Origin: Atractiella rhizophila
Taxonomy: Eukaryota
Length of the DNA stretch: 64,000 nucleotides
Reading direction: 5' to 3'
NCBI GenBank assembly: GCA_021432655.1
Contig: MU271182.1
Location: forward strand, 186,001 to 250,000
The notes under the pieces were generated by a model that was not told the DNA's origin, ran no database searches, and saw only the letters and a program-made list of their open reading frames with translations. A program made the translations under genes and the position numbers. The number at the start of each line of letters is the position of its first letter. Position 1 is the stretch's first letter. Shown here in pieces: positions 1 to 21,800 of the stretch.

Positions 1-487
1 AGGAGAGAATAGGACGGCGTCATGGAACACGGGACAAGGATAGGATGGTGAGAAATGGCGAGGGCGTCCGAACAGAGGTGCCAAGAAAGCGCGACGCGTC
101 CCTCCGACATCCCCATCTACCTCCCTGCTATCCGACGTCCATGTTCGACTTCTATGCTCACGGACTTGGTGCAGGTGGAGTGCGAGAGGAGGTGGAGTGA
201 AACTAGCAGAAAACGGAGCAACGGACCTAGCGCAAATTCCAGTTAGGAGGCTTGCGGAAAGGAAAGAGAGGGAGAAAGGAATACATTGCCAGCAAAAAGG
301 AAAGTCCCGACGAGGCTAGTGTGCGAAAAAGGCGGAGGGGTTGGCGGAATGCGAAATGAAGGGCGAACTTTGCCGCACAGGGTAAGTGCAGCAGAAAGAG
401 GAGGCAGAGGTCGAAAAGGAGTAGAAGAGACGTCGGGACGGTCTTTCTCACCGCTCTGTCCACCATTTCCACCATATGAAGTGACTC

Positions 488-3400
488 TCATGATAATGAC
501 ATTGACCCAGCAGATCGCGGTACATTCTTCTGAAACACATCCTGTATCTCCTTAACTCCAAAATCAAATGATAACTTATCGTCATCAGGGAAGCATCTGC
601 AGATTAAGGTGGTCCACTCCTTGATCAGCTTCGTCATTTCCTCCTCGCACACTTTCCAAACCGCCTGAGCAGCTCTCGAACTTTCAGCAGAAGGATTGCT
701 AATATCTCCAAAATGTTTATCGATCTGCTTCGAGAGCACTTCAGTCCCTTTCTTTAAGTCTTTGCGGTCGAAGGACGAGATAGTCTCCTTGAGCGATAAT
801 TTGGTATATCCATGAAGCGAGACTTCATTTGTTGGCGTGGTTCGAAGCAGTTGCTCCATCTCAGAGAAGAATTTGAGAAGGCGAGAGAGGAGATGACGAA
901 GGGCAACCTGGCTGTATTGATTTAAATGCTTGTCATACAGAGCTTGCCCGCGATCGAGCGATGGTTTGAGAGGAGCAATCTTCTTCGGACGGATCGTCGT
1001 GAGAAAGTGATGCATATTTTCTGATGTGGGTTAAGCAGTGATAAACTAGATGTGGGCAAAGCTCACCGATGAAGATGACATGGTAGTTCAGCTTATCTTT
1101 ACTATCCTCCGCAGCTGCAGCGTCTCCTTCCATTTCGGCCATTTGCTCCAAACTTTCCAACATGGACGAGAAAACTCCGTTGTATACAGCATTCACAAGT
1201 TTGCGCGCCGGAAGCCTATCATCTGATGGGACGATTTGAGATTCTATCCGGTCCACGAAGCGCTACCATCAAGCATTCTAAGGTCCTGGACGCGACCGAC
1301 CTTCAGCATGAAAGACGCACCGGGAACACACGAATAAAGGGAACAACTCCTTTCCGCTTCTCAAGAGTAAGCTTTGTCTGCTCGATAGCTTTAGTCTGCT
1401 CTTTGAAGATTTTTTGCAAGAATACGCTGGCTTTCTGATAATTTTCTTGCATCATTCGAGCAATAAAGTCGTTCCTCTGTGTTGCTGCACGCGTGGCTTC
1501 TCGATCCAAGACGGCGAGAATACCGACAATTTGACTGCCCCCACGAAGTCAACCACCGACACGATAAAATTAGAAGATCGTTACAATCCGTCTTGAGCGG
1601 TTTGGGAGTCGATCCAAGCACTTAATTCGGTGGCCATGAACCCAAATATCTTGCCAAGAGAATGCCGCATATCCATATCCGTAAAGCGAGTCTGTTGTCC
1701 TGCCATCGCAGCGGCTCCCTGCTTAAAGCTAGGTTCGAGGTCCATGTAGTCGGCAAAGGTCGAGGGGTTCACAGAGGAGGAAAAGGTGTGCAAGAACTCA
1801 GCTATGAAGGCTTGCTCTCTCTCTATTTGGCTCACAATACGGTCGACCAGCTGTTTGAAGGTCTGGAGACCAGAACCGTGAGCAACACTTAACGGGGCAA
1901 TGGTGCACTCTGACCTGATGAGGTGGCCTTCCGAGTTTGTTAAAAAAATCGCCTGTCTTCAACTTCTTTCTGGCTGCGGATTTGTTAAGCGCGACTGCAG
2001 CATTAGCACATTGGTACGTGAAGCCTGTGAGAGCAATTGAACGCAGTTTTGATGGAAGAATCAGTTGCCTACTAGCTTCTTGCTCATCCTCTGTTGGTTT
2101 GTGCGATAGTTTTCTGTAAGCAGCAAAGAGCCCCGTCATCTCTTTCCGATGGAGATCACTGGCGGAGCTACAATAAGCCTGTGTACAGTTGTCAAGAGAG
2201 CCTGAAACTGAGGGAAGCAACTGACAGAACAGATTTGTTGAAAGCGTTCATAATCGACCTCCTTCATGAAAAGCATAAGGCCACGGTACCGACCCAGATT
2301 CTCTTCCAATTTAGCGTGACTGGGTAAGCAAAGGTTGTTCTTGTCAATCGACCACAATGAATCTTTCTCCATCTGGTTGATCTATGAGACGGATCAGAAA
2401 GGCACCTGAAAGTAGAGAACTCAGACGTGGAGCTTGAACTTAGCCACCAAGAACTCCTGTACCGTGGTACAAAATTGTGGAGCCCGTTCGCGATGTTCAA
2501 CAAGACGTTCATTAACAGCAATCATGTCTCCGATGCCTGGTAATTCATCAATTTCGGAGATGATGAAAGACAGACCCATCTCTCCGGTCGACAAGAAAGC
2601 TTTATAGTGTGTCGTAGCTGACCGTTCTAACATTTGGAGAGTCTGAGGTGCCGGCGAGGGGAAAACGGCCAAACTTGTGCTTTGGCCACGAGAATGTTCC
2701 ATAGGTCGAGGCGCTACTCGCAGTGGTGGACATGGTGCAAAGTGAATACTAGTGATGCCTTCACGATTGTGATTGGAGGCCAGAACTGAGGCTCTTGGGC
2801 TAGGTTGAATCGATCCAACCTCTATCTCCCTTTGTGTAATCGAAGCAATCTTAGAGATGGTCGGCACGGCAGCACTTCCAGAAGTGAGGCGGTTCCCTCG
2901 GGCTTCCAGTTTCTGGATGCAAGTCTCATGCTCATCTTGATTGATCGCATTGGACTTGACGATTGCCAAAAGATCAGTCATGTTTTGCTCCTGTGAAGAA
3001 ACCCTGAGTCCAGTCAACTAATGAATGAGGAAAACGGTACCAGGTTTGTGATGGCGTTAGAGACCTTCTGCGTTTCTACCTTAGAGGCGTTGAAGACGTC
3101 GTAAAGGGCGATAGTGGTTGTGACCTACAAGAAGTAAGACGTTTCGCCCAACTAATGAGGAAGAGCCAACGTTAAATCTTGCAATCGCTTTGTCGACATC
3201 GAGAGAGAGTTTTTTCAATTCCTCCCCAATGCTGTTTGCATGCCACGCACCCCCCAACAAGCTGTCCCGTTGCTTTTGGATACGGTTGAGCACTCCTTCA
3301 GCATTTATAATCGCACTATTCTTCCTTCAATATTGAAGAACAAAAGAATAAACATGGGCTCCACTCACCTTTCGATTATAGAGTTATTCTCTTGTGGTAC

Positions 3401-3604
3401 CCCTTTCTCAGCTGCATTCTGGATCAAGGTTTCCAGCATGAGGATCTTTTCTGGAAGGGCCTCAATCTCTTTTGAGTTGTCTTTCATCTAGGTAACACCT
3501 GAGCCGCTCCAATTCTTCGGCAAGAAAGCACAAACCTTTTGCAAATGTTTGACGATTCCCCATGAAGCTTTGACCGCAGCGCTTGTCCCAGTAACGAAAT
3601 CCAT
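488..3604 (-). CDS. SEC3: Multi-exon chimeric gene: MLKL/HeLo-like N-terminal helical domain + low-complexity linker + C-terminal half of exocyst subunit Sec3 (Sec3 paralog lacking the PH-like and coiled-coil regions)
   Basis: Manual splicing from ATG 3604 through GT-AG introns (3535-3488, 3368-3316, 3170-3125, ~3064-3018 and further ~45-60 bp introns) gives an open frame to the stop at 488. C-terminal Sec3 motifs: HAKLEENLGRYRGLMLFMKEVD, IEREQAFIAEFL, KAIEQTKLTLEKRKGVVPFIRVFP, KDKLNYHVIFIENMHHF. Confidence 0.85.
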
Positions 3605-4219
3605 CCTATCTTGGGGACGCCTGCAGAAGCACGCGATTTGGATAATGGGAAGAGGAGGTGTCGGAAGTCAGGGACCTAGAGCTCTGGAAACTCAAACTTG
3701 CTCTCGCTCGAGCTTAGTTCAGAGAGATTTGAGAGAGATGGTGGACAGGACGGAAGGCGCTGAATGAGTCACTTCACTGTTCCAGGTGCTGGGCTGTGAA
3801 TAATTCTCAATGGGACAAAGAGAGGATCAAAACTTTAAAACAGAGTTCAAGCCAAGGACTCGCCAGACAAGTTCATGACACCATTGTGTGAAAGGTTCCT
3901 TCGAGCTGTCAGAGGACAATGCCTCCTCCTTCTGAAAACCTCATCCTTGTCTGCCCTCTCCCTCCTCGTAAGAAGCCGCGGCGCCGGTATGTGAAAAGCA
4001 AAGCCCATCTAGCGACGACGGGAACGTTTGGATCAGTTTGCGAAGTGTGCGGAGATGGCTGAGGGCTTGCTCAAGAAGCAAGGATTTGAGACGGAGCTTT
4101 TCTTGATTTCTCGATATCGGTTCCGGCTCTACTGCAACTGCAGTTCAGGTATCGCTACCTTGACAGAACCCAGACTCAGTCGCCTAAGTCTGCAGCGTTT
4201 CCCTCCTCTGCCGCCATAG

Positions 4220-4305
4220 GAGCTTCAAGCTCGTCGAGTTCACATGCTGGAGTCCCCCCCAACCTTATGAAGACTGGGAAAGAAACCTGTCTCAAGGCAC
4301 TGACA
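4220..4305 (-). repeat. LTR-like fragment related to the 5' end of the Copia element at ~28325
   Basis: Minus strand TGTCAGTGCCTTGAGACAGG...CCAGTCTTCATAAGGTTG...GAACTCGAC aligns with 28330-28410 (TGCCTTGAGACGGG...CCAGTCTTCATAAGGTTG...GAACTCGAC). It starts with TG. Confidence 0.6.
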
Positions 4306-4426
4306 GCCCTCGTCCCTCGGGCATCCCCACCCCCGCCAGTGGCTTCGCCCCTTGGACCCCAGCCTCCCGCGGCCACTGCGTGGAGCTCTTGCCTCTGGCA
4401 GCCACTGCGTGGGGCCTTGCCTTCGG
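4306..4426 (-). mobile_element. Orphan Helitron 3' subterminal module
   Basis: Near-identical to 18842-18963, 46110-46233 and 61829-61952 (CCACGCAGTGG x2, GGGGCGAAGCC, TGCCCGAGGGACGAGGGC). Confidence 0.85.
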
Positions 4427-5075
4427 ATCAGTGATCGAGACCCAAAATTCACAGCGACATTTTGGAGCTCTCTCATGCAGATCCTAAAATGTATGTCTAC
4501 AGCATATCATGCCCAGACAGATGGGTCCGCTGTACGACACATTCAAACGGCTATTGACGCTATTTGGCGATATTGTTCCTTTGGTTTATATCACATTGAC
4601 GATTTGGGCTTTACTCATGATTGGGTGTCCTTATTACCTGCACTAGAATTCACCTTCAATTCATCAAAGCATTCTAGCACAGGAAGAAGTCCTTTGAATT
4701 GGAAAGAGGTTATATTCCCCTTGCTCCTCAAACGTTCTGCGGCAAAAGAACTCTTCGCTACGGCTAAATCGCAGTGCAATCCACTTTGCAAACATGCTAG
4801 ATTTAGCGCAAAAGAGAGCTGTAGATTGTATTCAGGATGCCTTCGAGGCCGCAAAGGATCGCTGGGACAGACATCACACGCCGTCTCCTATCACAGTTGG
4901 CAACAAAGTCATGATCTCAACAAATCATTTCAATTTCAAGGATCCTCACCCAAAACTACATGATCAAATTTGCAGGACCATTCACAGTTACAGAACTGAC
5001 TGGCCCAAATACAGTCAGAGTACAATTAACACCTCCTTATGACAAGAAACAACCCGTGTTCTCTGTTCAGCTCTG
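4427..5075 (+). pseudogene. Ty3/Gypsy integrase C-terminal fragment (frameshifted)
   Basis: ISDRDPKFTATFW, MSTAYHAQTDG, DWVSLLPALEFTFNSSKHSSTGRSP, and the GPF motif KFAGPFTVTELTGPNTVRVQL, spread over several frames. Confidence 0.85.
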
Positions 5076-5105
5076 CAACATCCCATTGTTGTTGACAAGA
5101 CTTGA

Positions 5106-5504
5106 TGGTGTCATATCCATCAGCTGGAAGAACACTTCCCAGAACAAACTGAATCCATGAGGGATCTATGGGATAATGTAGCAGGGACTGTAGAAGGTTT
5201 AGGCTTAAGTAGCATATTCACTGGGGTGGTTCTCAACTACGGCGTCTCCACTTGGCTTCATGTGGACAAAAAGGATCATAAATTGTGTGTAGTCATCCCC
5301 TTTCATGGTGGTGAACAGCTGGGAGGGTGAGAAGGTGGGGATCTTCTGCTACCAGAGCAGCGTTTGAGATTAGAGCTGCTGCAGCCGGTGAGGTTTGCCT
5401 CAACCAAGATGCTCCACTGTAATATGGAGGTCAAGGGGTGGAGAGGATCAATTGTCCTGCAGTATGATTCATACTTGGGAAGGGAATTGGGAGTTGATCC
5501 CTAG
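5106..5504 (+). pseudogene. TET/JBP-like 2OG-Fe(II) dioxygenase remnant
   Basis: Not in the ORF track. Frame 3 reads ...IFTGVVLNYGVSTWLHVDKKDHKLCVVIPFHGGEQLGG*EGGDLLLPEQRLRLEL...KMLHCNMEVKGWRGSIVLQYD. It has HxD (5259-5267), GGxLxL, a distal H and RxS. In-frame TGA at 5328-5330. Confidence 0.75.
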
Positions 5505-6539
5505 GTGCATGACTGAGGGTTATACTTTACTAGTATTGAACATTGAGTCCTTGTATTCAACATCATCATCATAATCCAAAGTTAGTGAACCTTTGTTGTA
5601 CATGAGCAGAAACTACTTGAGACAGCTAGGAAGTGGAGACCAAGGTAGTGGGAATTGTGTGGGTACCTGACCTGCTGACCTGCAGTTGCTGTAAACGGAC
5701 CTTAACCCTTCCAGATAAGATCTGGTGACCCTAACCTGTAACATCAGCACATTTGTAGGCTAATATGTCTCTGTGAAGGCCAACTGCCATGGATACCTGA
5801 GAGTGAAAAACAATGCTCAGCTCCTTGATCCACTTTGACTGCTCCAGCCAGCCCAGGTATATTCTAATTCCTTCCACCAGTGGATTGGCTCTGTCTCTTA
5901 TTTGAGCTCATCTCCGATATGAAAGACTTCGCTTAGTTGGGGCCAGGAACGCAAGCCATATTCAGGTACCAAGGCTATGAGCCTCTGACTTGCATCCATA
6001 ACATAACATTTCTCGCAAACAAAGTTACCAAAGTTACTCCTCTTATGGCTAGCCTTGCACTTTCCCAGGGAAATTAAGGCGATGCTGAGGAGAAACACTG
6101 GATGATTTGAAGTTTAATTGTCCGCCTCTCCCAATCCCTCCGCTCTGAATTCGCCCCAATAGTCTCCTCCATGCACTCACTCCTCTTGTCATTTGCCTTG
6201 CGACGGTTTTGTGAACAAACTAACACTTTCAAAGGAGATAGGGGATGGCTTCACATTGTACCTTTCTTATGTCTTCGCAACAGCAACTATCTGAACAATC
6301 TCGTTGGCAGCCTAGTGGTACATCGCTTCATTCACCTTCTGTCTTGGGAGTTTTGACTTTCAGCCAGCATCTCCGAAGTCCAGGCAATCGAGATGCCGGC
6401 CACAATCGACAACAGAGCAAAAAAACGACCATCATCTCCACCATCCCGACCCGACATTATACTTAAGAAAATTCCCACCTTCTCCCAACCACACCTCTCC
6501 AAAATTTCGCCCAACTCATCCCACCTCTAACTTTCTCAG

Positions 6540-8068
6540 ATGCTTCCCCCTCCTGGCTCCCAGCTAGGCAGAGAAGAGCTTACATCGCCATCTGCTGTAA
6601 GGGACATTGAAGTAGATTCTACCTCAATGTGGGACCCAATCTCAAGGGTTCCTGGCTATCAATCCAACGCTCGTCTCGAGCCTCAGACTCCTAAAGCCAA
6701 AAAATTCCTCAACGCACTCCTGCCAAATGTCCTAGATCATGAGGATCCCATCAAGATACTCCAGCTACTGCGGGACTTCCTTTATAATACACGCAGACTC
6801 ATGCGCAACCAGAACTTGATGACGTTCAAGAATCACGAGTTTGACTTCTTAGACAGCTTGATGAACCATCTGAGCACCCGCCTGAGCTCCCCAGAGGCGA
6901 GAGACTCTCCGTCGTCAGTAGGGCTAGAGGTCAAGAGGGGTATTGAAACCCTAAAAGGCCAACCACTTTGGGAGCCAAGACGGCGGAACGCATGGCCAGC
7001 CACCTGTCAAAACTACATGGAGGAACCAAAGCTAAGCACCATAATCTCTCTGTCCTCCCCCAATCTGTCCACCACCACACTCCCCCCAGCCCCCACAAAG
7101 CTCTACTAATGATGCTTGCCCAGCTCACGCTCATGTGGAAACAGCCAACCGCCCTGGACTCTGAAAGTACCTCGGATTCTCCTTCCAAAGAGGGGGTTAT
7201 AGGGTCATATCTTAGTGCAACCTCATCAAAGAGGAACCTCAGAAGCTAGTCATGATTTTCAAAGACGTGTTCATGGCAAAAAGCATTCCCAGTGAAGTGT
7301 ATAAACACATGTAGGGAAGTGATAGACAAACTCTCAAGTTGTTCGCTCACCTTCGAGTCAGAGCTACTCAGCACTTGAAGAGTGGCGATTTGCCTCTCCA
7401 CTTCTACGATCCCATGGATATGGAAGAAGCAATTAGAACACACAAGAACAGTGGCTTCTTGCCGTTGAAGACAGATGGTCCATCAAGCAAAAAAGCTTCC
7501 TAGTAATAGCCCACGCTGTCCCCATGTCCTTCGACATTGAGGCCACAGAGGAAACACGGAGAAGACTTGAGCTATTCAACCTCGCCTTGATGAACCATGT
7601 GAAGAAGTTAAGCTGGTGCCTCCCTAAGCAGTCCGCAACATTGTCTCAGGAGCAAGTGAAAACACACTCCTCTCTCATCCTCAACATCTACAATCCTACT
7701 GCTGCCGACGTGCTAATTGAGTTCGGTCTTGTCATTGACGGGAAAGCGTTCATGGTCGAGAAATCCATCCGAGATGTTCTAAGATGCTATAAGTGTCAAA
7801 AACTTGGTCACACCGCCGCGAGGTGCAAGGCCCCAGTGTCCTGTGGGGTTTGCGCCGGCCCCCATTTTACTAAGAGTTGTACCCTCTCCTGCGTCAACCC
7901 CTCCCCTGTCACAATGCGTTATACTGTCCCCATAAACCGATAAAGTGCTCCTTATGTGGGGCTAATGACCACAATGCTCAATGTAAAGGCTCGGAATGTG
8001 AGATCCCAAACGAAGCAAGGACTTCTCATAGGATCCAGGTTGGCTCATCCTACTACTATGTGAAATGA
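6540..8068 (+). pseudogene. LINE ORF1 (gag-like, CCHC zinc knuckles)
   Basis: RCYKCQKLGHTAARC, CGVCAGPHFTKSC, CSLCGANDHNAQCKGSEC. Frameshifted. Confidence 0.8.
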
Positions 8069-8256
8069 GTGCAGACCAGTTTCCGAGTCATCATTTCTCC
8101 AACAATCTAAGTTCTTCAAATTCATCACCTTTAATCTTTCTTCGAACCCTTCCTTTTCTTCTTCACCACCCATACCTTCCCCAGCCCAGTCCGCCTTTTT
8201 CAATCCCTTTCTAGCCTCCTCTCTCTGGCAGACCGCAAGCCCTGACGAACTTTCTC

Positions 8257-9984
8257 ATGTGGATAGCCCCTCTACGGACACCTCCATCCCTCCTCATCCT
8301 CCTCCCTCTCTATTCTGTGTGTTGCAATACAACATGCAGAAATCAGGCAGAAATTACCGGTCACCTTCCATTCTCTTCTCTCTACTACGCACTCTATCTA
8401 CGATGTCCTGCTCCTCCAAGAACCCTATTTTACACCAGGCAACTCTCTCCCATGCTATCCTAATTGGTGTCGATTATCGTCCTCTCCATCGGCATGCTCC
8501 ACCATTCTAGTCAACTCAGCAACAATCGCCAGTTCCGCTGTCTCCCAGATAGTCTCCCCCACACCAGACATCTCTGCAATAAGAGTAGACCTCGCTTCAC
8601 AATCCCTAATTTTCATCAATGTCTACAATGGTTCAGCACACTCCTCTGAAATCTTAATTGCCTTGTCAGATCTCATCCTTCAACAACAAAGGCTTGTCCC
8701 ATATTCTTGTGGATCACTTTTCTATGTAGGCGGAGATTTCAACCTTCATCACGATCACTGGAACCAAGAAGGGATGCGAAAGCGGAGGAGCTTCTTTCGT
8801 TAATGATAACTGCCGGCCTCGAGCTCAGATCAGAGCAAGGAGTAATCACATGGGCAGCAAGGGACTCAGAAACAGTAATCGTCCTGGTCTTTGTGAATCC
8901 GGGAATAGACAACTTGATAGATTGCTGCATCACCGATCACTCCAGAAAGGAACCATGGTTCTGACCACTTTCCCATTTTCACAGTACTCAACCTAATGAA
9001 ACCCAATCACCTAGAACAGAGGCTTCTCAACCTTCAAAAAGCTGACTGGAATTGAGTGAGGGAAGAGGCAGGAGGAAGACTCAAGGGTACCAATTCAATC
9101 TTGACAGAAGATTGGAAACTGAGGAGGAAATCAACAATGCCACAGAGTTCCTGACGAAAGTGCTTCAAGGTTTTCAAACAGGTGTTGGGATGCGGATCTA
9201 ACAGCTCTCAATGCTCAAGCAAACAGGCACAGAAACTTCCAGAAGACCAAAAGAGATGAGGACCATGCTTTGTTGTGGCAGAGTTCTCTTCAAACTTTTA
9301 GGCATGCGGTCAAGGCGCGGAAGGCTCGCACTGGAATAATTTTCTAGCCGCCTTATGGACAGCATCGTCATATGCAAAGCATGAGAGCCATGAGAGACAA
9401 ATCCCACCTCTTAAGAACCTTGAGGACTCTTTCACTCTCGACAATGAAGGCAAAGCGAGGGTATTTCATGACACCTTTAGCGCCATGCACCCCAACCCGG
9501 AGCTAGAGGACTTGGATCAAGATGGGTTAGACAACTCAATAGAAGTTGACTTCGGAGCGATTGAGATTCAGGAGCTAGATGAATACATCAAGAGAGCAAA
9601 AAGGAAGTCGGCCCAGGGGACGATGGGATTTCACATTGGGTCTTGAAGGAAACGTGGGATGTAATAAGGGAAGTTCTCTTCCATATAATAGATTCTTGCT
9701 TCTGCATAGGGTACTACCCACAGTGTTGGAAGGGCTTTTCAATATCACTGTTGAGAAAGCCGAAGAGGCCCAACTACACAGTAACCAAAGCGTGTCGTCC
9801 AATCGCACTGCTCAGGTGCCACGCTAAAGTTCCCGATGGGGCCCTAGTCACGAAACTCGCTTACTTCACTGAGAAACACCATCTCCTTCCTGATCAACAC
9901 TTTGGAGGGCGTGTGGGGACAGGCGCCACTGACACCCTTATATCCGTGGTAGAGTTCATCATGGATGGCTGTGTTATCTGGTAA
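8257..9984 (+). pseudogene. LINE ORF2 (APE endonuclease + partial reverse transcriptase)
   Basis: VLQYNMQKS, VGGDFNLHH (~8726), GSDHFPI (~8957), YYPQCWK...LRKPKRPNYTVTKACRPIALL, LLPDQHFGGRVG. It ends before YxDD. Confidence 0.85.
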
Positions 9985-13700: not shown

Positions 13701-15025
13701 CTTGAGAATGCTTATTCTTGATGTTCGGACTCGATGGAGTTCCACCCATGAGATGCTCAATCTTGCTGACTCCTACCGGCATGCTATTGAACGCTATTCG
13801 GATCACTACGAGATCGGCGAGGACGAAAGGTTATCTGAGGAGGATTGGGAGGGGATAAGGACTGTCTGTAATTGGCTGAAAGCTTTCCGAGATGCGACCC
13901 TTCAAATGTCAACAACATCGATCCCCTGTCTCTCCTCAACCCTCCGTCAGTACCATGGCTTGCTCAAGCACCTGAAGAAGGCAATCAAGGAGTTTCCGCC
14001 CAACATCTCAAAGGGTTATCGGAGCGGACTTGTTGACGCCTACACAAAGATTGCAGAGTACCACTACCGTTCTGATGACTCTCCATATTATGTCTATGCT
14101 GCTCGTATGTCATCACATTGCACTTTACATGTATGGTCAAGGCTGAAACCTACTTAGTTCTTGATCCTCGGCTTGGACCCAAGTTCTTCGAACGCTCAAT
14201 TTTCAGTCAACCGGAGAAAGCTGCGATAGAGAAGCATAAAGAAAATCTGATTCAACTATTCAAGGACAGATACTTTCCGAAGTATGGCAATGGATCCACA
14301 ACCGAACTGATGCCCACCTCCACTGGCAATGACTCTTACCTCGATAAAGCCTTCAATGATGTTGACAGTGACAGCGACGATGACGATGTGCAACTAGCTG
14401 ACGACACGATGACTGAACTTGAGGCAATGCGTGAGGTCAATTACTACATGACCCATTATCAGCTTCCTAATGGCACCGATATCTTTGAGTGGTACAAAGA
14501 TCAAGCAAAGACACAGCTCCCTGCTTGGTCCCGCATGGCACAAGATATCCTCTCTATTCCAGGTATATACTTTTACTACTCTTTGTGGCAATTGTATTGA
14601 CTTTTCAATTTGCTATCAGGATGTGCTGTTGGAGTCGAACGCATCTTTTCTGGTGCTCGCGACACCATTGGGATCAGACGACACCGTTTGAAGCCTTCAT
14701 CAATCCGTGTCCTCATCCTTACGAAAGCGAAGCTCAGGCTGGATCGGAACAGGGAAAGGAAGAGATTATTGAGAAAGTTGCGGGAGTTGCAGGGAAGCAA
14801 AACTGGGAAGGCGGCAAAATAATGGATTAGTCTTGATATTTCAGTGGAATACAAGTCAAACTGTCCCGTATCTGTCGAACGACCCCGCCGAAGTCGGATC
14901 GGTGGTTATACCGAACGGACTGGATATTGGTTTACGATAGACGATACGATTCGAGTACGATACAAAGAACACCGGTGAACGAAAGTACCCTTTCCGGGTC
15001 CGATACGCTTCGATAGCCATCCCTA
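10716..15025 (+). mobile_element. Full-length hAT DNA transposon
   Basis: TIRs TAGGGATGGacATCGAA and TAGGGATGGctATCGAA (reverse complement at 15009-15025). Perfect 8-bp TSD GTCAGCGA at 10708-10715 and 15026-15033. Subterminal TACGAT repeats at both ends. Confidence 0.95.
11084..14822 (+). CDS. hAT transposase (multi-exon; BED finger, DDE core, dimerisation domain)
   Basis: BED-like VWLFY...CNFC...HL...H (~12070-12250). Core motifs LALDAW, ITSDNASNND, RIRCFPHIIHL, DVRTRWSSTHEML, MAQDILSIPG/CAVGVERIFS. TATA-like TATATAAA at ~10998. The 5' exon structure is tentative. Confidence 0.88.
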
Positions 15026-17733
15026 GTCAGCGAACGCCTCAGTTTTAACCGTTCAGGCTCGATGTGACCCGGAGACAGGGGCACCCCCAGCGCCGTGTTC
15101 ACTACATGTGTCGCCCGTTGAAACAGTGCAGTTGAGAGCCGATGCTTCAGGCGTAGAAACTCTGATGTCTTTTCAAAATGCCGCAGGATTGGTAAAGGGT
15201 TTGACAGGCATAACATGCTCCTTAGCAGGACATGTTCAAGGTTTGGGTATTGTTCACGGGATTGAAACAGTGCGTGCTGATCCTCGTGGGCCTCAAACTG
15301 TTGAATATTTGCCTCAGCTTTCTGCATGAGATGGTATGAAAGAGGCAGCAAATTCGAAGCTTGAACCATCGAAAATGGTGATTCGGAACGAGAGTCACGG
15401 TCGTTGACGTATTCGCGAATAGGAGCTAGCATACGGAGAGTGCCTTCGAGGCCATTGGCAACCCCAATCTTCGAAATTACACCGATAACCTTGAAGATAC
15501 CCTTATGCTCATAAGAACTGGATAGGAGTGCTGACAAATCGTGGTAGGATAAACCGCCAGGCACACATGGCAGGAGGGCAAGCACAAAAAAACCACCCTC
15601 CACCTCCTTGCACAGAACCGGAGAATCGAGGGAGAACGATATAGAGTTTTGAGCGTGATAGCGGCTTTGCTGTCCTCATCCCATAAAATGCTAGTCTTTT
15701 TCTCTTACCACTCGCCTACTAATTCCTCGAGTGTCATGGTTTGGATCCTCGGTGGCCCGTAGAGCAAATAGCTTGATGGACAAAGCATGGAAGTCCAGCT
15801 ATTGAACTAGGCTTCTGACCAGCAGATGTGAGAACTCATCTTCTCGCTGATATGAATCTGCAAAGAGTTCCAGCGCACCGTCTTTCGGCAAACGTCCAAC
15901 TGAGACCTTGACAAACTTCACCCACGCCTCCTCCTTCATAGGCGCCAGCTTCTTCACGCTTCTGCTTGATCTCCCCCAATGGGCCACGACGAGCACTGAC
16001 CCACCTGAGTTGTTTGAAAGAAGTGTTCGAAAGAATGTCTCCTTTGTTGTCGTTGTCAGCACGTAGTGGAGTTTCAAAGTTATCCAAAACAAGAAGACAT
16101 TTTCGACTTCCGAAGTAGGTGGCCTCATTCTCCAGTGGGGTCTTGCTAGACTGAGCCAGCGCGAAGAGATAATTGCAAATGTGATCTGAAAGCCTGGCAA
16201 AGTCGTCAAAGTTGTCGCAGCGAACCTGAAAGCGGAGATCTTCTCGAGTGTCTGCTGCGAAGGCCCGCTTGATCGCTTGATCTCCTCTGCGTGCAATGTG
16301 TCGAGTGCAACGGTGGATTTTCATTTCCAGCTCCACCAACAAATCGCGACGTGACGGCCACTAAGGATAGCTTCTCTCGCAAGTTGGATCTCAGCCTCTC
16401 GCCCAAAGCAAGACCCTGGAGGCGGTAACGGAAACCTTCGACGAACTGCAATCCGTTCAGTGCACATTATCAGAACATAAACATAGTAACGAAACGGGAG
16501 GTGAGGGATCATACCTTGTACGAGATGGTCAGCAGCATGACGAGCTTCATGACCCATGGTGTCCATATACGCCTTTCGTACGGCCGACCAGGACCTGAGT
16601 TCGCTCCCACTCCTCCCACTTGATGCTTCCCAACGTATGGACGGAAAAACAATGGTAGCGATGACCCAGAGGTTGTTCTTGCATCATCATTTTCACCTGA
16701 TTCGCCACGCGGGAGCAATCCTCGACGATGGCCTTCACAGCCTGCTCAATCTGAGCCATCGTACGACCTAATGAGACAGCCTGAGCAAGGCCTGAACCCA
16801 AAGATACGAGACAGGCAACTTGGCTTCTTTCTCCCCAAATCCTCTTTGACTCGTCAATCCCTAATGCTGCTGGGTTATTGTTTCCCATGGCGACATATTT
16901 CGTGTGTCGATGACGATAGGAGGGAAGAAGTCAGGATCAGAGGAGGTTGCTCTTGCTGCCTTCCACACTACACATTGAGCAGCAAAGCGAGCCGCATGGG
17001 GGACGTCGTACGTGCGCATCTCTGTCGAAACGACGGCATCTGATTCGTATCTTGAGACGATGAATGTTTGCAGCGATCTGCAATCTTGTCATCCTTCATG
17101 GGAAGACGGGACGACGGCACAGATGATGAAGCATGTCGAGCAATGATGCCGTGGAAGACTGCTCCGAGATTGGAGTTTCTTCGGAAAAGACTTTGGCCAC
17201 GATCTGTTCGCCGCACGGATGCATTCTTGAACGGTCATTCCCAATCGTCCAAGCATGAGGGCAATCCATCCTCCCGTAGAAGTGCCACAAATGAGATCGA
17301 AAACATCGCAGGGTCGAACCTCTTCTCCCTCGGGAACGCCGAGGAGATTTCCAATTTGGAGCATGTAAAGTGTGGAAAAGGTACAGATGCCGCCGTTGTC
17401 AATAGCGAGGATTCGGACGCCTTGGTCGTTCGTCTTCTTGACATCGCCGAGGACTTGTAAAATCTTGACGGCTTGAACTTGGGAGCGGCTGGGGGATGAG
17501 AAAAGTGTTGGAGTAGCAGCTCTGGAGGCAATGCGCGATGCGGTACGCGATAGGAAGCCAAGTTGTGGGCCAAAAATTGTCGGTTTGGCAGTCAGGAAAC
17601 GGCTGGGTTGAGTACAGCTGCAATATTGAAAGATTTTGAACTCCGACGCCTTGATTAGACTATGGAACTTGTCACGAACCGGCGGTGAATGCGTTGTCGT
17701 CATCAGATACAGATAAATTCCCAGGGTCTTCAT
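15026..17733 (-). pseudogene. Patatin-like phospholipase - NB-ARC/STAND - TPR NLR-like gene, frameshifted and hAT-interrupted
   Basis: Patatin: VRILAIDNGG, RPCDVFDLICGTSTGGWIALMLGRL, NNNP, CLVSLGSG. NTPase: FGREAEI, a degenerate Walker A at ~16340 (GGAG...) and Walker B LLVLDNFETPL. A helical region follows and leads into TPR. The 5' start is uncertain. Confidence 0.85.
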
Positions 17734-18815
17734 CGTCGCTGGGATTTAATGAAGAAGGTTTAGGGGTCTTTCTGAAGGCTGAGGCGTCCATCGCCTAGAG
17801 CACGATGACAATTGACCGAGAACTCCTTGTTGAACGTGAGATACGAAACTGAGGAAATAGGTCAGATCTGGACTAGAGCTACGAGGAGGGAGGGCAGCGA
17901 AAGAAGCGGAAGAAGACACAAGGCAGTAGAGCCGCATTCCGATTCAAAGATCCACACGCCATGGAAGAACATCCCTTACGAACGTGAGAACATAAGGATA
18001 AGAAGGGGAGGTCAACTTAGCAACTGGAACCATTTGTCAACTTGCAAGACGGTGGACCGAACGCTAGGAACAAGAAAGATGTCGCGATGAACCAACTTGC
18101 CTAAGAATTGCAGTTGTGGATATGTGTTTGAGTTGAGTCAATGGAGATATGAAGGTTGCACAACTTGAATATATTGACAAGAGAGAACACATCTTTTATC
18201 TCATCGTCGACAGGGCAAGAGTCAACAACGACTCACATGCGAGACTTTCTTCGACCGATCGCGTAGTAGCAACCAACTGCTGGCACTTGACACTCAACGC
18301 GCAAAATCCAGGAACAATTTGCTCTCCCTGACAGCATGAGAGAGATGCAGAGAGGGTTCGTCGGTTGATGTAGACAAGGCTCGATTCTCGAAAACCCTCG
18401 TCCACCTGATGTTCAATATTGATGGCTATGAGACATTCCGCGTTCCGCGGTCATTTTTGGGCGGATGCATCAAAAGTGCCCCGAATTCAAACGGACATTC
18501 TCATGAACAAGCTTCGCCATTCTCAACCCTGAGGATCGAACTTTGTACTTTGTTTGAGAGACGGAATCGTCGAGTTAAAAACTGGTCGACCATCAAAATT
18601 AGTCCTGAATTGGAAGGGCGATCTTGACCTGATTCGTAACGCGGATCCGGGGCCATCATCCCAGCAGCGAATTCCAACCCTCTTGCCCTTGCTCCACCCT
18701 CCCTGTCGCTTCTGTCATCATGCAAGCAACAGATGACACAAGCGAACGAAACTCCAGAAAACGTAAGGGCTAATTGGAGGTGTGTCTGTCACCATCCAAT
18801 TGCGATTTTCCGTGA

Positions 18816-21800
18816 CAAGTGTGTCAGTGCCCTCGTCCCTTTGCCCTCGTCCCTCGGGCATCCTCCCCCCCGCCAGGGGCTTCGCCCCTTGGACCCCAGC
18901 CTCTGGCGGCCACTGCGTGGAGCTCTTGCCTCTGGCAGCCACTGCGTGGGGCCTCGCCTTCGGCGAGCACAGACTCACCATATGTACTCTACTGTCTTCA
19001 AAAAAAAAAACAATGAAAGCTGAGTGGTCTCCTCGTACCTCGGAGAACCACTTCAGCTTTTGACTATACTGTTAGGAACATGCTGTGAGATGATCAGTGA
19101 TTGAGTACTTGTAACACTTCCTTGTAAACTACATTATCTGTTTGCTTGTTTTCCTCTCCTTGCTTTGTTTTGACCAATACTCGCAAATTGTTTGCATTTG
19201 AAACCCGTGAAAGACCAACATAAAGCTGCCCATGAGAGAAAGGAGAAGACTCTAAGTACAAACCCACATGTCCAACAGATTGTCCTTGCACTTTATTCAG
19301 AGTTAAGGCAAACGCTAAGCGCACAGGGAATTGAAAGCGCCGGAATTGAAAAGGAAGCTGGTTTGACACTGCACTGTCAATGCCAATTCAAGGAATGAGA
19401 ACTGATTCGCCACTGTGTGTACCTGTAATGATGGTTGCTTTGATGACTCGTCGGAGAAGCTGAGTGACAATGAGCCACGTGCCGTTGCACAGGCCAGCAG
19501 ATGGATTGAGATTTCGCAGAAGAATGATGGGTGCAAACGATGCGAAGGGAATCCAGAGATCTCCAGGGTATTCAGGTACTCAACAGAGAAGCGGTTTCTG
19601 AGATCTCCCTCGTCATCTATAATTTGATCTGCACTATAATATACCCGATCTCCTATGGATTCGAGCCACTGAATCAAGTGATCGTTGATGCCATCCACAT
19701 GATGTGGGCATGTGGTAGACCTCTCTTCTGACATTCAATGACCTAGACATATCTGATAACCCTTCCAAAGATCTGTCGTACCACTAAATCCTTGATGTAC
19801 TCTAGAGCCTTCAGTCAAAAAACCCTTGAAACCAAATCTGGTCGATCCTCTGGTTTTTGTCCTGGTAGGAGGGCTTCCGTGATCTCTGCCCAATGTGGGT
19901 TGTAAGTGAAGGTTGAAAAGATATTTGGGGGTCCTTTGGCACCAACTATAGTCATTGCATCCTGGAACAGCTGATTCATTGAACGTGGACTGCCAGTGAA
20001 ACTTGATGGTAATATAGTCCGCCTCCCGATATCTTCTAAAGAATAGCCTTCTGCAAGGGCATCCGTAAGACCTTGATACACCTCGGCTCGAAGAATAGAC
20101 TTGATTGAACCGCAGATAGCGGAGTCGATTCACCTCAATTTGAGCATAAGCATCAACTACCAATTCTTGCAGTAGCCGACCACCGTTGAGAGGGAGTGAG
20201 AATATATCATTTCGTTGATGCAATATGTAAGAATAGAACTCCATTTGGCTGACACGTTGTCGAACCCCAGAATTACCAACTTGCATGCCGTCACCATTGA
20301 AGTGCTCCCGCTCGCGAGGAGGAAGATCTGCAGGCAGGTCTCGATACGGAATCTGCGGATGCCATCCTTGGTCCCCATATGGAAACAGAAGAGGAAAACG
20401 AAGTGGAAGATAATTTGAGTTGAGCTCATTCACACGCTGTAAGTTGCTACTGGTCCTGGTTGGCCTGAGATGGATGACAATATCTCTGGCCACTCCATAT
20501 TCTTCTCTGTTACCGTCTCCTAACATCACTACAGCAACTTCACTGGCTACAGGAATGTTGTAGCGTCTTGGGTCCCTATCTCGTGGGGCGACTGTGCGAA
20601 GATGTAGTGTTGTAGTGGGATCCTGTTCCATTCTTTCTTTTGCAAATTTGTAGATCCTGGGATATGGGTTGACATGGAAGAGCATAGCCTGAAGTTCTTC
20701 AAGCATAGCACGACTCAGTGAGACTGAAGAGTTCCCAACTCTTCGTTCAATCTGTACACCTGAATCTGTAATGTAGACCTGTGCAAATGTTTCACACCCT
20801 TCTTGTTGTGGTAAAAGAGTGCCAATAAGGTGGCACAGCTCTCCCTGAATTTTGAAGGAGTAAGGACCATGTCCAGGAATTGATACCTGACGGACGCCTA
20901 AGGATGTAAATGCAAAAGCATTATTGAATATCCTGATATGCTCTCGAAATGCCATTGACTCTATAATGATTGTTCCTCTCAGATATGTATATGCAAAAAA
21001 TTGAATAGAAATACTTACCTGTTGTATTGTCATGTGTAAAAAGCTTTCGTAGCTCTTCAGGTGGAGGCGGAGGGTCAGGTAGCAGCACCTTGCTGTGGAG
21101 ACAGCACAATGCAAACTTTGGATTTCATTGTGGGCTGTTAACGATCTTCTCTTCCATCCAATGAAAGGCTTTGCAATGTGTACAAAGTAATCCCCAAGTA
21201 GAGAGGTGGTGTGCCTCAAGATCCATATCAGGTGAGTAGTTGAATGCAGGATAGTGATGTTGCCTTATTTCGCCTCACAACAACGGGATTAATGCCCTAT
21301 CCTCATCACTGTCCACACCATCAGGATCAGGAGAGGATGGGTATGATCGGGTTTCTTCTTCACTGTACTCCTCAGCGGAGGGTGAATGCTGTCTCCAATG
21401 TCGTCGAGCTCGCCATGATGATATAGATAGTAAAGAGCTTCGACGCTGCCGCTGACACTGACATGGAGCCCTAGTTGATCTTGTCTCATGTTGAGATGGA
21501 GTAGATGGAGTAGGATTAAAACGTGCAGGGCGTTGCCTCTCTCTTACAGGTCGACCTTGGTATAGTGGTGCCTCCTGCTGCAGACATTGATGCCGTTTGG
21601 ATCGACGCTCTCGATTTCTTGTTTGATTTCTCTGAATTGCACATGGCATGGGAGTGTAGCTTGCTGCACATAACAAAATGATATGAGTGAAGAATATATA
21701 AGCCAGAGTCCACACACCTATGCTTTTTTTGCTTGATTTGATTTGAAGCTAACAGGCTGAGGGATACTATGGTAGACTGTTAGGAAGCATATTTGTGGTG

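What the first reader, a model, noticed from the sequence alone, without database searches (positions are those of the whole stretch)
488..3604. Apparently intact fusion of an MLKL/HeLo-like cell-death domain to the C-terminal half of exocyst Sec3
Seen: four small 5' exons splice in frame to give MDFVTGTSAAVKASWGIVKHLQKMKDNSKEIEALPEKILMLETLIQ...GAWHANSIGEELKKLSLDVDKAIARFNVTTTI. A Ser/Pro linker follows, and Sec3 similarity starts at ~2650 (LERSATTHYKAF). I found no stop in the spliced frame, although most neighbouring genes are decayed. Known: canonical Sec3 has an N-terminal PIP2-binding PH-like domain and a coiled coil, both absent here. The N-terminus fits the pattern (K.N..e...L...I..L ... 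I.eeL..l...v..Ai.rF.v) of MLKL-like four-helix bundles on fungal NLRs and kinases. Inference: this may be a duplicated Sec3 fragment used as an integrated decoy or sensor wired to a membrane-targeting death domain. That would be an architecture I do not recognise as described.
Basis: partly seen in the sequence, partly recalled or inferred. Interest (0 to 1): 0.9.

Follow-up and report, generated by a model that had tools for sequence, protein, structure and literature searches.

The report
Putative death module fused to Sec3
The fungus Atractiella rhizophila has an intact, spliced gene that joins a helical module resembling cell-death executioner domains to a fast-evolving copy of the rear part of the exocyst protein Sec3, an arrangement found in no other organism searched.

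Summary
A 12-exon minus-strand gene (CDS 3604-488) gives an uninterrupted frame identical to the public model P0001 (857 aa, Atractiella rhizophila). Contigs of run X1 lack all 11 introns. One contig joins exons 1-4 to Sec3-homologous exons 5-7.

Residues 250-857 are a Sec3 paralogue (Pfam Sec3_C-term E 7.5e-70) with no PH domain and no CorEx coiled coil. The same species has a canonical 1249-aa SEC3, P0015, with PH, coiled coil and C-terminal domains.

The fusion copy is 73% identical to P0015. It carries 42 lineage-specific changes against 2 in P0015. It still preserves invariant Sec3 columns, and its open frame is not what neutral decay would leave (0 of 3000 simulations).

The N-terminal module has one detectable relative in 1.84 billion representatives, P0014 from the same species. 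Its MLKL/HeLo-like identity rests on language-model and predicted-structure neighbours only. Pfam, a PDB profile search and AlphaFold2 did not confirm it.

The sensor or decoy function is inference. I rate it a new variant of a known kind.

The parts
488..3604 (-). Complete CDS of the chimeric gene (12 exons, 857 codons plus TGA at 490-488); equals P0001, 'hypothetical protein BT69DRAFT_521830 [Atractiella rhizophila]'
   Evidence: Script splicing of the window translates exactly to P0001. P0001 was retrieved at 100% identity with exon 5. Introns (high..low): 3535-3488, 3368-3316, 3170-3125, 3040-2991, 2426-2382, 2225-2179, 2072-2025, 1914-1863, 1584-1535, 1320-1263, 1066-1021. All are GT..AG and all 11 are skipped by contigs of run X1.
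3605..3792 (-). 5' untranslated leader seen in the intron-less contig
   Evidence: Contig record 2 of X1 starts at 3792. An in-frame stop lies at 3668-3670, with no in-frame ATG before 3604.
3536..3604 (-). Exon 1, residues 1-23 (first helix of the N-terminal module)
3369..3487 (-). Exon 2, residues 24-63 (holds the MKDNS and EKGVPQENN stretches invariant between P0001 and P0014)
3171..3315 (-). Exon 3, residues 63-111
3041..3124 (-). Exon 4, residues 112-139
2427..2990 (-). Exon 5, residues 140-327. One exon holds the end of the N-terminal module, the linker and the start of Sec3 homology, so the fusion junction lies inside an exon.
   Evidence: Covered without a break by contig record 2 (2427-2989).
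2814..3604 (-). N-terminal helical module, residues 1-198 (introns included). Homologous to residues ~23-187 of P0014. Putative basidiomycete MLKL-like/HeLo-like four-helix bundle plus helical extension.
   Evidence: phmmer over 1.84 billion representatives finds only P0001 and P0014 (E 5.7e-27, 43% identity, query 22-183). Atlas neighbours. All-helical in both AF2 models, at low confidence.
2661..2813 (-). Linker, residues 199-249; Ser/Pro-rich and predicted disordered
   Evidence: pLDDT 25-30 for 10-residue blocks 201-250. Composition. No homology to P0014 or to Sec3.
491..2660 (-). Sec3-derived part, residues 250-857 (introns included): CATCHR-type helical rod corresponding to canonical SEC3 (P0015) residues ~658-1249. 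It starts after nearly all of the coiled coil (Sec3_CC is 550-680 in P0015).
   Evidence: BLASTP against P0002: 433/609 identical, query 250-855, subject 181-772. P0002 equals P0015 478-1249. AF2 pLDDT mostly 80-93. Foldseek top hits are Exo70 structures (2b1e E 2.2e-5, TM by target 0.55), then 5yfp_G, Tip20 and Munc13.
584..1778 (-). Match to Pfam PF20654 Sec3_C-term, residues 480-826 (profile 4-355 of 355)
   Evidence: E 7.5e-70, 236 bits. Exons 9-12 match the profile collinearly when scanned singly.
2226..2381 (-). Exon 6, residues 328-379
2073..2178 (-). Exon 7, residues 380-415. The two X1 contigs overlap here by about 31 nt (2133-2163).
   Evidence: joint sides 45 and 91
1915..2024 (-). 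Exon 8, residues 415-451 (annotated donor at 1914)
1585..1862 (-). Exon 9
1321..1534 (-). Exon 10
1067..1262 (-). Exon 11
488..1020 (-). Exon 12 with the stop codon

Best explanation
This is a young, lineage-specific chimeric gene of Atractiella rhizophila that is spliced, transcribed and kept open by selection. It has three parts. (1) An N-terminal all-helical module of about 200 residues belongs to a tiny family shared only with P0014 of the same species. It is most probably a divergent member of the basidiomycete MLKL-like / HeLo-like four-helix-bundle group. (2) A disordered Ser/Pro-rich linker of about 50 residues follows. (3) The rest is a DNA-level duplicate of SEC3, with introns retained, that kept the CATCHR rod but lost the PIP2-binding PH domain and nearly all of the CorEx coiled coil. 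From recalled knowledge of the yeast exocyst structure, CorEx is what builds Sec3 into the exocyst. Proposed mechanism (inferred): the protein works like MLKL, as a membrane-attacking helical bundle held in check by, or targeted through, a C-terminal non-catalytic domain. Here that domain is an exocyst-derived rod acting as a bait, sensor or localiser. Binding or modification of the rod (by a factor that normally targets Sec3 or the exocyst, or by exocyst partners at sites of secretion) would release or concentrate the N-terminal bundle at the plasma membrane. Shown: gene structure, splicing, chimeric composition, presence of a separate canonical SEC3, asymmetric fast evolution with a retained frame. 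Inferred: the fold class of the N-terminus (my odds ~0.6) and the death or sensor function (~0.3).
For: Reality: the spliced CDS equals P0001. X1 contigs skip all 11 introns with CT..AC ends. Bins holding an intron have exactly the depth expected for zero cover of the intron (for example 69.6 = 120.1 x 66/114 for 3478-3591; my arithmetic on table 2). Contig 2 runs 3792 to ~2133, joining exons 1-4 to exons 5-7, which hold 146 Sec3-homologous residues.

Chimeric origin: the N-terminal module matches P0014 only and is unrelated to any part of canonical Sec3 (hhalign probability 0.6%). Residues 250-857 are 71% identical to P0002/P0015 and form a 100/100 clade with them. P0015 is a complete SEC3.

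Selection: at sites where at least 6 of 9 outgroups agree, P0001 has 42 unique changes and P0015 has 2 (binomial p 1e-10). P0001 keeps 104 of 120 invariant Sec3 columns (87%) but matches P0015 at only 300 of 430 variable columns (70%; Fisher p 1.6e-4). 0 of 3000 neutral simulations reaching the observed 161 amino-acid differences stayed free of stops, and the inferred mutation spectrum has no RIP-like bias (C>T+G>A 28%, T>C+A>G 22%).

N-terminal identity: the Atlas feature search gives as first hit the same Basidiomycota cluster with MLKL_N on 26% of members for both P0001 (0.94, 191 of 256) and P0014 (0.93, 184 of 256). Further rows carry MLKL_N, RPW8, PigL_N and SesA. Among structure neighbours of the Atlas model of P0001, the PigL_N rows have TM 0.53 by query and 0.58 by row, and 0.60 by query; an RPW8-NB-ARC row has 0.59 by query. 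PMC9815663 (passages) reports about 600 basidiomycete MLKL-like sequences. Many score just below Pfam thresholds and hundreds stand outside NLRs, so a miss by Pfam is not unusual for this class.

Concept: fungal NLR PLP-1 monitors the exocytosis SNARE SEC-9, and the exocyst is a recurrent pathogen target (PMC10197012, passages). Plant NLRs carry integrated Exo70 domains (PMC13291817, search listing and abstract start).
Against: No alignment-based method links the N-terminus to MLKL_N, HeLo, HeLo-like/PigL_N, SesA or RPW8. Pfam gives nothing at E<=10 for P0001 or P0014, and nothing at E<=1 for exons scanned singly. A two-sequence profile against 177,635 PDB sequences gives one irrelevant hit at E 0.95.

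AlphaFold2 does not produce a confident bundle: mean pLDDT is 45.6 with three long helices, and 30-64 in the full-length model. The Atlas calls its structure rows 'under the bar: name no family', and unrelated bacterial helical proteins score the same TM. The Atlas model of P0014 is poor and its structure neighbours are unrelated.

The first helix is only moderately hydrophobic (mean Kyte-Doolittle 0.32 over residues 2-20). There is no NOD, kinase or amyloid motif that would tie the protein to a known death pathway.

The gene is known from one genome only, so conservation cannot be judged. Fast evolution, including 16 of 120 invariant Sec3 columns changed, also fits relaxed constraint. dN/dS could not be computed. 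The library type of run X1 is not on record, and no single contig spans the whole CDS.
Confidence: 0.4

Rival explanations
1. A non-lethal, exocyst-related role. The N-terminal helical module is simply a new coiled-coil or bundle for targeting or oligomerisation that replaces the PH domain and CorEx. The protein would be a specialised Sec3-like tether, adaptor or competitive regulator of exocyst partners at particular secretion sites.
For: The Sec3 rod is well folded in the model (pLDDT 80-93), has the CATCHR fold, and keeps 87% of invariant Sec3 columns. These columns could preserve partner-binding surfaces. The N-terminus has no alignment-based link to death domains. Exocyst subunit paralogues with new roles are known in plants (EXO70FX clade, bioRxiv 10.1101/2024.12.13.628418, search listing and abstract start).
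Against: Without CorEx it cannot enter the exocyst in the canonical way (recalled from the yeast exocyst structure; absence shown). The 42:2 rate asymmetry is unlike a protein keeping a conserved housekeeping interaction. The Atlas neighbours of both family members point to MLKL_N, RPW8 and PigL_N clusters rather than to tethering factors.
Confidence: 0.3
2. An evolutionary by-product. A transposon-mediated or segmental duplication in a repeat-rich region dropped a SEC3 fragment behind the 5' half of a P0014-like gene. The chimera is transcribed but has little or no function and is drifting.
For: The gene sits among broken Helitron, Copia, LINE-like and hAT remnants. Helitrons capture and express gene fragments in fungi (PMC4289320, search listing and abstract start). 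It has a very long branch (0.36 against 0.0015), and 16 of 120 invariant Sec3 columns are changed. It is found in one genome only.
Against: The frame is open over 857 codons, with 11 canonical introns all removed in the contigs. 0 of 3000 neutral simulations keep the frame at this divergence. All gaps against the paralogue lie within one continuous in-frame protein alignment. Substitutions avoid invariant columns (p 1.6e-4). No repeat or transposon end flanking the gene was found within 1-9000, although the 3' flank runs off the window.
Confidence: 0.2
3. An artefact: mis-assembly or mis-annotation joining two separate genes.
For: The public model is an automatic annotation. No single contig covers the whole CDS, and the run's library type is not recorded.
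Against: The junction between the two homology regions lies inside exon 5. Both the genome window and an intron-less contig read through it without a break (2427-2989). That same contig carries the splices of exons 1-4 and 5-7. The reading frame is continuous.
Confidence: 0.03
4. The N-terminus is a very diverged remnant of Sec3's own N-terminal or coiled-coil region, so there is no fusion.
For: Both regions are helical.
Against: Comparing the profile of P0001 1-200 plus P0014 1-206 with 11 canonical Sec3 proteins gives probability 0.6%, E 0.1, and that hit lies in the C-terminal end of Sec3. The module has an independent homologue, P0014, with an unrelated Pro/Gly/Tyr-rich tail.
Confidence: 0.01

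Closest known systems
Sec3 / EXOC1, exocyst subunit (canonical copy in the same species: P0015, BT69DRAFT_1312361)
   Same: Residues 250-857 are collinear with, and 73% identical to, P0015 ~658-1249 (428 of 589 aligned columns). Pfam Sec3_C-term matches at E 7.5e-70. The rod has the CATCHR fold.
   Different: It lacks the PH-like PIP2-binding domain and the coiled coil. Those are present in P0015 and in all 10 full-length relatives. It evolves far faster than the canonical copy (42 against 2 unique changes) and carries a foreign N-terminal module.
MLKL (four-helix bundle plus brace plus pseudokinase), the necroptosis executioner
   Same: The layout may be shared: an N-terminal helical bundle with a helical extension, then a non-catalytic C-terminal domain that could regulate it. 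Atlas feature neighbours carry MLKL_N.
   Different: There is no kinase-like domain. No Pfam MLKL_N match at E<=10. The fold is not confirmed. A disordered linker of about 50 residues replaces a tight brace-to-domain contact.
Fungal HeLo / HeLo-like (HELL) and basidiomycete MLKL-like (BaMLKL) effectors such as HET-S (PMC10197012 and PMC9815663, passages)
   Same: N-terminal position, size, all-helical nature and fungal host. BaMLKL domains often stand outside NLRs and escape Pfam thresholds. The only relative, P0014, is a short protein (398 aa) with a low-complexity tail, an architecture reminiscent of HeLo plus a C-terminal signalling tail.
   Different: Known partners are NLR modules or short amyloid motifs, not an exocyst subunit. 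The words 'exocyst' and 'Sec3' occur 0 times in the main text of PMC9815663. Membership of the family is not shown by any alignment method here.
Plant NLRs with an integrated Exo70 domain (barley NLR, PMC13291817; listing and abstract start only), and guarding of exocytosis proteins by fungal NLR PLP-1/SEC-9 (PMC10197012, passages)
   Same: A duplicated exocyst or exocytosis component is attached to, or watched by, a cell-death-triggering protein. The attached copy evolves apart from the housekeeping copy.
   Different: There is no nucleotide-binding oligomerisation domain or repeat sensor here. The subunit is Sec3, not Exo70. The host is a fungus. The bait would be wired directly to the putative executioner.

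Membership tests
Sec3/EXOC1 exocyst subunit | C-terminal helical-bundle region (Pfam PF20654 Sec3_C-term) | tested here: met
   E 7.5e-70, residues 480-826, profile 4-355 of 355. Exons 9-12 are collinear with the profile. CATCHR fold by Foldseek.
Sec3/EXOC1 exocyst subunit | N-terminal PH-like PIP2-binding domain (PF15277) | tested here: not met
   No hit at E<=10 in P0001. Present in P0015 (E 2.3e-21) and recorded for 10 of the 12 other Sec3 hits.
Sec3/EXOC1 exocyst subunit | CorEx coiled coil (PF09763 Sec3_CC) | tested here: not met
   No hit at E<=10. Homology to the paralogue starts at P0002 residue 181, while Sec3_CC spans 73-203, so only about its last 22 residues remain.
Sec3/EXOC1 exocyst subunit | Assembly into the octameric exocyst | not testable with these tools
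   Needs co-purification or pull-downs. Loss of CorEx argues against canonical assembly (recalled knowledge of the yeast exocyst structure).
MLKL_N / HeLo / HeLo-like (PigL_N) / SesA / RPW8 four-helix-bundle group | Match to a family profile (PF22215, PF14479, PF17111, PF17107, PF05659) | tested here: not met
   None listed at E<=10 for P0001 or P0014, nor at E<=1 for single exons. HMMER filters drop most matches above E ~0.1, so very weak similarity is not excluded.
MLKL_N / HeLo / HeLo-like (PigL_N) / SesA / RPW8 four-helix-bundle group | Four-helix-bundle fold with an N-terminal helix | tested here: inconclusive
   AF2 gives all-helical models at pLDDT 45.6 and 30-64. Foldseek on the weak model gives nothing below E 0.34. 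The Atlas model of P0001 neighbours PigL_N models (TM 0.53 by query and 0.58 by row; 0.60 by query) and an RPW8-NLR model (0.59 by query), but bacterial helical proteins score alike.
MLKL_N / HeLo / HeLo-like (PigL_N) / SesA / RPW8 four-helix-bundle group | Sequence relatives among solved structures (MLKL, HET-S, plant MLKL, CC-R) | tested here: not met
   Profile A2 against PDB sequences gives one unrelated hit at E 0.95.
MLKL_N / HeLo / HeLo-like (PigL_N) / SesA / RPW8 four-helix-bundle group | Language-model feature neighbourhood of the family | tested here: met
   The first hit for both P0001 1-180 (0.94, 191 of 256) and P0014 1-190 (0.93, 184 of 256) is a Basidiomycota cluster with MLKL_N on 26% of members. 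For P0001, 10 of the ten best hits with a family share a family or clan; for P0014, 8 of ten. This is a lead, not an alignment.
MLKL_N / HeLo / HeLo-like (PigL_N) / SesA / RPW8 four-helix-bundle group | Membrane permeabilisation or cell death on activation | not testable with these tools
   Needs expression assays.
NLR with integrated decoy domain | Nucleotide-binding oligomerisation domain (NACHT or NB-ARC) plus repeats | tested here: not met
   No such Pfam family in P0001 at E<=10. No NLR-type domain among the 41 ORFs of at least 150 aa from the rest of the window that I scanned (41 of the 48 listed), nor in the 16 minus-strand ORFs of 14.6-19.1 kb.

The most novel reading that the evidence does not exclude
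A NOD-less 'bait-and-executioner' protein. A duplicated exocyst Sec3 rod, freed from exocyst assembly by loss of CorEx and the PH domain, serves as a fast-evolving decoy for factors that attack the secretion machinery, and it is wired directly to a pore-forming MLKL-like bundle. This would be the first fungal exocyst-derived decoy. It would parallel plant Exo70 integrated domains while bypassing the NLR switch altogether.
Probability: 0.25. Interest if true: 0.85.

Novelty: new variant of a known kind. Interest (0 to 1): 0.6.

Why it matters
Fungal immunity and allorecognition are thought to rest on guarding of core cellular machines, with exocytosis prominent among them (PLP-1/SEC-9). In plants, exocyst subunits have been copied into immune receptors as baits. 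A fungal gene that attaches a copy of an exocyst subunit straight to a putative membrane-attacking module would extend the integrated-bait principle to fungi. It would also extend it to a receptor with no nucleotide-binding switch, and would give a compact two-part protein in which bait and executioner can be tested separately. Even if the death-domain reading fails, the locus is a clean, datable example of chimeric gene birth in a transposon-rich region. It has a housekeeping parent copy for comparison and measurable asymmetric evolution.

Tried and rejected
- Whole-genome access: none is held for this window. The paralogue question was answered from protein databases instead.
- First Pfam call on exon references failed on a frame error. 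It was repeated with corrected coordinates.
- My minimal-intron path search merged introns and was discarded in favour of short canonical introns.
- The look-up of sequencing runs: no RNA holder listed. The one holder, X1, has no library type on record.
- AlphaFold2 of residues 1-200 with P0014 gave pLDDT 45.6, which is unusable. Foldseek on that model gave nothing below E 0.34, only generic helical bundles. A few plant CC-NLR resistosome chains appear at E>1 and I do not count them.
- Profile A2 against PDB sequences: nothing relevant.
- Metagenome scans with the N-terminal alignment (266 pattern matches, 0 confirmed) and with P0001 (44 pattern matches, 0 confirmed): no relatives.
- Earlier scan notes: nothing near the place, nothing for the words searched.
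- RIP-type hypermutation as the cause of the long branch: rejected on the inferred spectrum.
- N-terminus as diverged Sec3 coiled coil: rejected.
- Other copies in the window: none by tblastn.
- Repeats or transposon ends flanking the gene within 1-9000: only short, probably chance pairs.
- Supplements of PMC9815663 searched for the Atractiella accession, locus-tag prefix and genus name: 0 occurrences in 10 files. Files 8-10 were not searched, so listing of P0014 among the paper's BaMLKL homologues is not excluded.
- dN/dS: not computed, because no DNA of the paralogue could be fetched.


Full report
**What is there**

On the minus strand, an ATG at 3604 opens a frame that runs through 12 exons and 11 short GT..AG introns (45-58 nt) to a TGA at 490-488. 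The ATG is preceded by an in-frame stop at 3668-3670. A search with exon 5 alone returned one protein, P0001 (857 aa), at 100% identity. Its source names it 'hypothetical protein BT69DRAFT_521830 [Atractiella rhizophila]'. That species belongs to Basidiomycota, Pucciniomycotina, Atractiellomycetes. With the annotated donor of intron 8 (1914 rather than my first choice of 1908), the window's spliced CDS translates letter for letter to P0001.

**Is it one transcript?**

The one public run that holds the locus (X1; library type not recorded; 67% of sampled words) was laid on 400-3800.

- Its contigs are identical to the window but skip all 11 introns, each with CT..AC ends on the plus strand.
- Bins that contain an intron have exactly the depth expected if the intron has no cover. 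For example, 69.6 for 3478-3591 equals 120.1 x 66/114 (my arithmetic on table 2).
- The run therefore holds the spliced form and not the genomic form, which is what cDNA gives.
- Contig 2 (1371 nt) starts at 3792, 188 nt upstream of the ATG. It passes through exons 1-6 and 45 nt of exon 7.
- Contig 1 (1361 nt) runs from 91 nt inside exon 7 to 548. The two overlap by about 31 nt in the stretch most conserved with the paralogue, which is a typical graph break.
- The junction between the two homology regions lies inside exon 5, which contig 2 covers without interruption.

No single contig spans the whole CDS and the library type is unknown, so long-read cDNA remains the formal proof.

**The Sec3 half**

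- Pfam finds Sec3_C-term at residues 480-826 (E 7.5e-70) and no other family above noise.
- A search with residues 255-857 found 13 proteins including P0001 itself. Ten are full-length Sec3 proteins of Pucciniomycotina and Ustilaginomycotina with PH, coiled-coil and C-terminal domains on record, at 33-42% identity. Two have the coiled coil but no PH domain: P0002 of A. rhizophila and P0011 of Melampsora.
- P0002 is 71% identical to P0001 over P0001 250-855 (433/609).
- The cluster look-up showed that P0002 shares a 90% cluster with P0015, a 1249-aa A. rhizophila protein. P0015 has Sec3-PIP2_bind (63-146), Sec3_CC (550-680) and Sec3_C-term (880-1221). It is 769/772 identical to P0002.
- The species therefore has a canonical SEC3, and the window's gene is an extra, truncated paralogue. 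It begins about 22 residues before the end of the coiled-coil profile, so it lacks the PH domain and nearly all of CorEx.
- With a 14-sequence alignment, AlphaFold2 models residues ~300-850 at pLDDT mostly 80-93.
- Foldseek matches the model to Exo70 crystal structures (2b1e E 2.2e-5, TM by target 0.55), to Exo70 in the yeast exocyst (5yfp_G), and to Tip20 and Munc13. This is the CATCHR rod fold.

**How the Sec3 half has evolved**

- In a maximum-likelihood tree, P0001 groups with P0015 and P0002 at 100/100 support. Its end branch is 0.36 changes per site, against 0.0015 for P0015.
- Site counts say the same. Of 589 aligned columns, 428 are identical.
- Where at least 6 of 9 outgroups agree, P0001 alone has changed at 42 sites and P0015 alone at 2 (p 1e-10). 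With a looser rule the counts are 82 and 18.
- The changes are not random. P0001 keeps 104 of 120 columns that are invariant in all ten canonical proteins, but matches P0015 at only 300 of 430 variable columns (Fisher p 1.6e-4). Even so, 16 deeply conserved positions have changed.
- Of 161 differing residues, 136 can be explained by one nucleotide change. The inferred spectrum shows no C>T/G>A excess (28%, against 22% for the reverse transitions), so RIP-like hypermutation is not the cause.
- In 3000 neutral simulations mutated until 161 residues differed (mean 255 mutations), none stayed free of stop codons.
- All gaps against the paralogue lie within one continuous in-frame protein alignment.

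The copy is thus evolving several-fold to about twenty-fold faster than its parent while its frame and core are under selection. Without the paralogue's DNA I could not separate relaxed constraint from positive selection.

**The N-terminal module**

- An exhaustive phmmer search of 1.84 billion representatives with residues 1-200 found only P0001 and one other protein, P0014 (E 5.7e-27, 43% identity over 22-183). P0014 is a 398-aa A. rhizophila protein (BT69DRAFT_1356107).
- In P0014 the same module is followed by an unrelated Pro/Gly/Tyr-rich tail.
- The module is unrelated to any part of canonical Sec3 (hhalign probability 0.6%), so the gene is a true chimera of two families.
- Evidence against an MLKL/HeLo-like identity:
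  - No Pfam family at E<=10 for either protein.
  - No relevant PDB sequence for the two-sequence profile.
  - AlphaFold2 models too weak to use.
- Evidence for it:
  - The Atlas feature search gives the same first cluster for both proteins, a Basidiomycota cluster with MLKL_N on 26% of members (0.94 with 191 of 256 features; 0.93 with 184 of 256).
  - Further rows carry MLKL_N, RPW8, PigL_N and SesA.
  - The Atlas's own model of P0001 has PigL_N and RPW8-NLR models among its nearest structures at TM 0.53-0.64 by query. I recall PF17111 (PigL_N) as the former 'HeLo-like N' family.
  - The tool calibrates 170 or more shared features as typical of true family members.
- The Atlas itself labels the structure rows as below its naming bar, and bacterial helical proteins score as well.
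- PMC9815663 (passages) describes about 600 basidiomycete MLKL-like sequences. Many sit just below Pfam thresholds and hundreds occur outside NLRs, so a divergent member missed by Pfam is plausible.

I put the odds of membership in this four-helix-bundle group at about 0.6.

**Context and origin**

- I scanned the 41 ORFs of at least 150 aa that lie outside this gene and are not near-duplicate overlaps (41 of the 48 listed).
  - Three groups have Helitron-type hits. Two of them (42.6-46.0 kb and 57.3-61.3 kb) also carry PIF1; the third (19.7-21.3 kb) is a weak Helitron_like_N fragment (E 3.1e-4).
  - One is a Copia-type element (30.4-34.0 kb).
  - One is a LINE-like remnant (7.4-8.8 kb) and one is a hAT fragment.
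  - All have interrupted frames.
- A weak patatin fragment lies at 17089-17745.
- The Sec3 part kept introns, so the duplication was at the DNA level.
- The fusion point is inside an exon and is bridged by about 50 residues with no homologue, which suggests that the linker was recruited from non-coding DNA.
- Helitron capture of gene fragments is documented in fungi (PMC4289320, listing only), but I found no element ends around the gene. The mechanism of origin is therefore open.

**Mechanism and rivals**

- Best reading (0.4). An MLKL-like arrangement in which a membrane-active N-terminal bundle is tethered to an exocyst-derived rod that senses, is targeted by, or localises with factors that bind Sec3. 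This fits the architecture, the retention of a folded rod without the assembly elements, the asymmetric evolution, and the precedents of SEC-9 guarding in fungi (PMC10197012) and Exo70 integrated domains in plants.
- Non-lethal exocyst-related adaptor (0.3).
- Transcribed by-product of transposon-driven shuffling (0.2).
- Annotation or assembly artefact (0.03).
- Diverged Sec3 coiled coil (0.01).

**Novelty**

No protein combining this module, or any module annotated as MLKL-like, with Sec3 appeared in the searches. The literature searches 'HeLo-like + exocyst' (1 paper, a review that does not describe such a protein; passages seen) and 'MLKL + Sec3' (23 papers; the 10 listed are unrelated by title and abstract start) found no description. 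I file it as a new variant of a known kind: a putative HeLo/MLKL-type effector module with an unprecedented exocyst-derived partner and no NLR switch.

Noticed in passing
window 19735-21264 (-), 42585-45987 (+), 57266-61342 (+): Two Helitron-type copies on the + strand carry Helitron_like_N plus PIF1 helicase and the Pif1 2B domain, each split over several ORFs and so probably inactive. The third site, 19735-21264 (-), has only a weak Helitron_like_N fragment (E 3.1e-4).
   Followed up: partly
window 28824-33997 (+); 7437-8803 (+); 14079-14600 (+): A Copia-type retrotransposon (gag-pre-integrase, rve, RVT_2) broken into successive ORFs. A LINE-like remnant (zinc knuckle plus endonuclease/exonuclease/phosphatase). 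A hAT dimerisation fragment.
   Followed up: partly
window 17089-17745 (-): An ORF with a weak patatin-like phospholipase match (E 9.9e-6, below the gathering score). Patatin is an effector domain of fungal NLRs such as PLP-1. The 15 neighbouring minus-strand ORFs scanned gave no NLR or other family.
   Followed up: partly
P0014 residues ~270-398 (A. rhizophila BT69DRAFT_1356107, not in the window): The only relative of the N-terminal module ends in a Pro/Gly/Tyr-rich low-complexity tail that includes a PPPY motif. This could be a regulatory or aggregation-prone tail, as in HeLo-type effectors with C-terminal signalling motifs. Not analysed further.
   Followed up: no
window ~403 (3' of the stop codon): One X1 contig fits from 403 upward but continues below it for 50 nt with letters that are similar, not identical, to the window. 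It may come from a paralogous or allelic 3' region, hinting that the duplicated segment reaches into the 3' flank.
   Followed up: no
P0002 and P0015 (A. rhizophila, contigs of 31 kb and 96 kb): P0002 (772 aa) is 769/772 identical to the C-terminal 772 residues of the canonical SEC3, P0015, but lies on another contig. It is a haplotig, an allele or a very recent second duplication with a truncated model.
   Followed up: partly
P0011 and P0009 (Melampsora larici-populina): The poplar rust also has a second Sec3 model without the PH domain (889 aa), nearly identical to its full-length copy in the tree. Partial SEC3 duplicates may recur in Pucciniomycotina.
   Followed up: no
window ~2540-2580 (P0001 residues 277-289): A 13-residue insertion relative to the canonical paralogue, in a stretch that AlphaFold2 models at low confidence (275-295).
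   Followed up: no
window 4362-4415: Two adjacent 25-nt direct repeats (84% alike, 29 nt apart), about 760 nt upstream of the start codon, at the edge of a degenerate ORF (4304-4963, +). By eye that ORF looks integrase-like, but Pfam does not confirm it.
   Followed up: no
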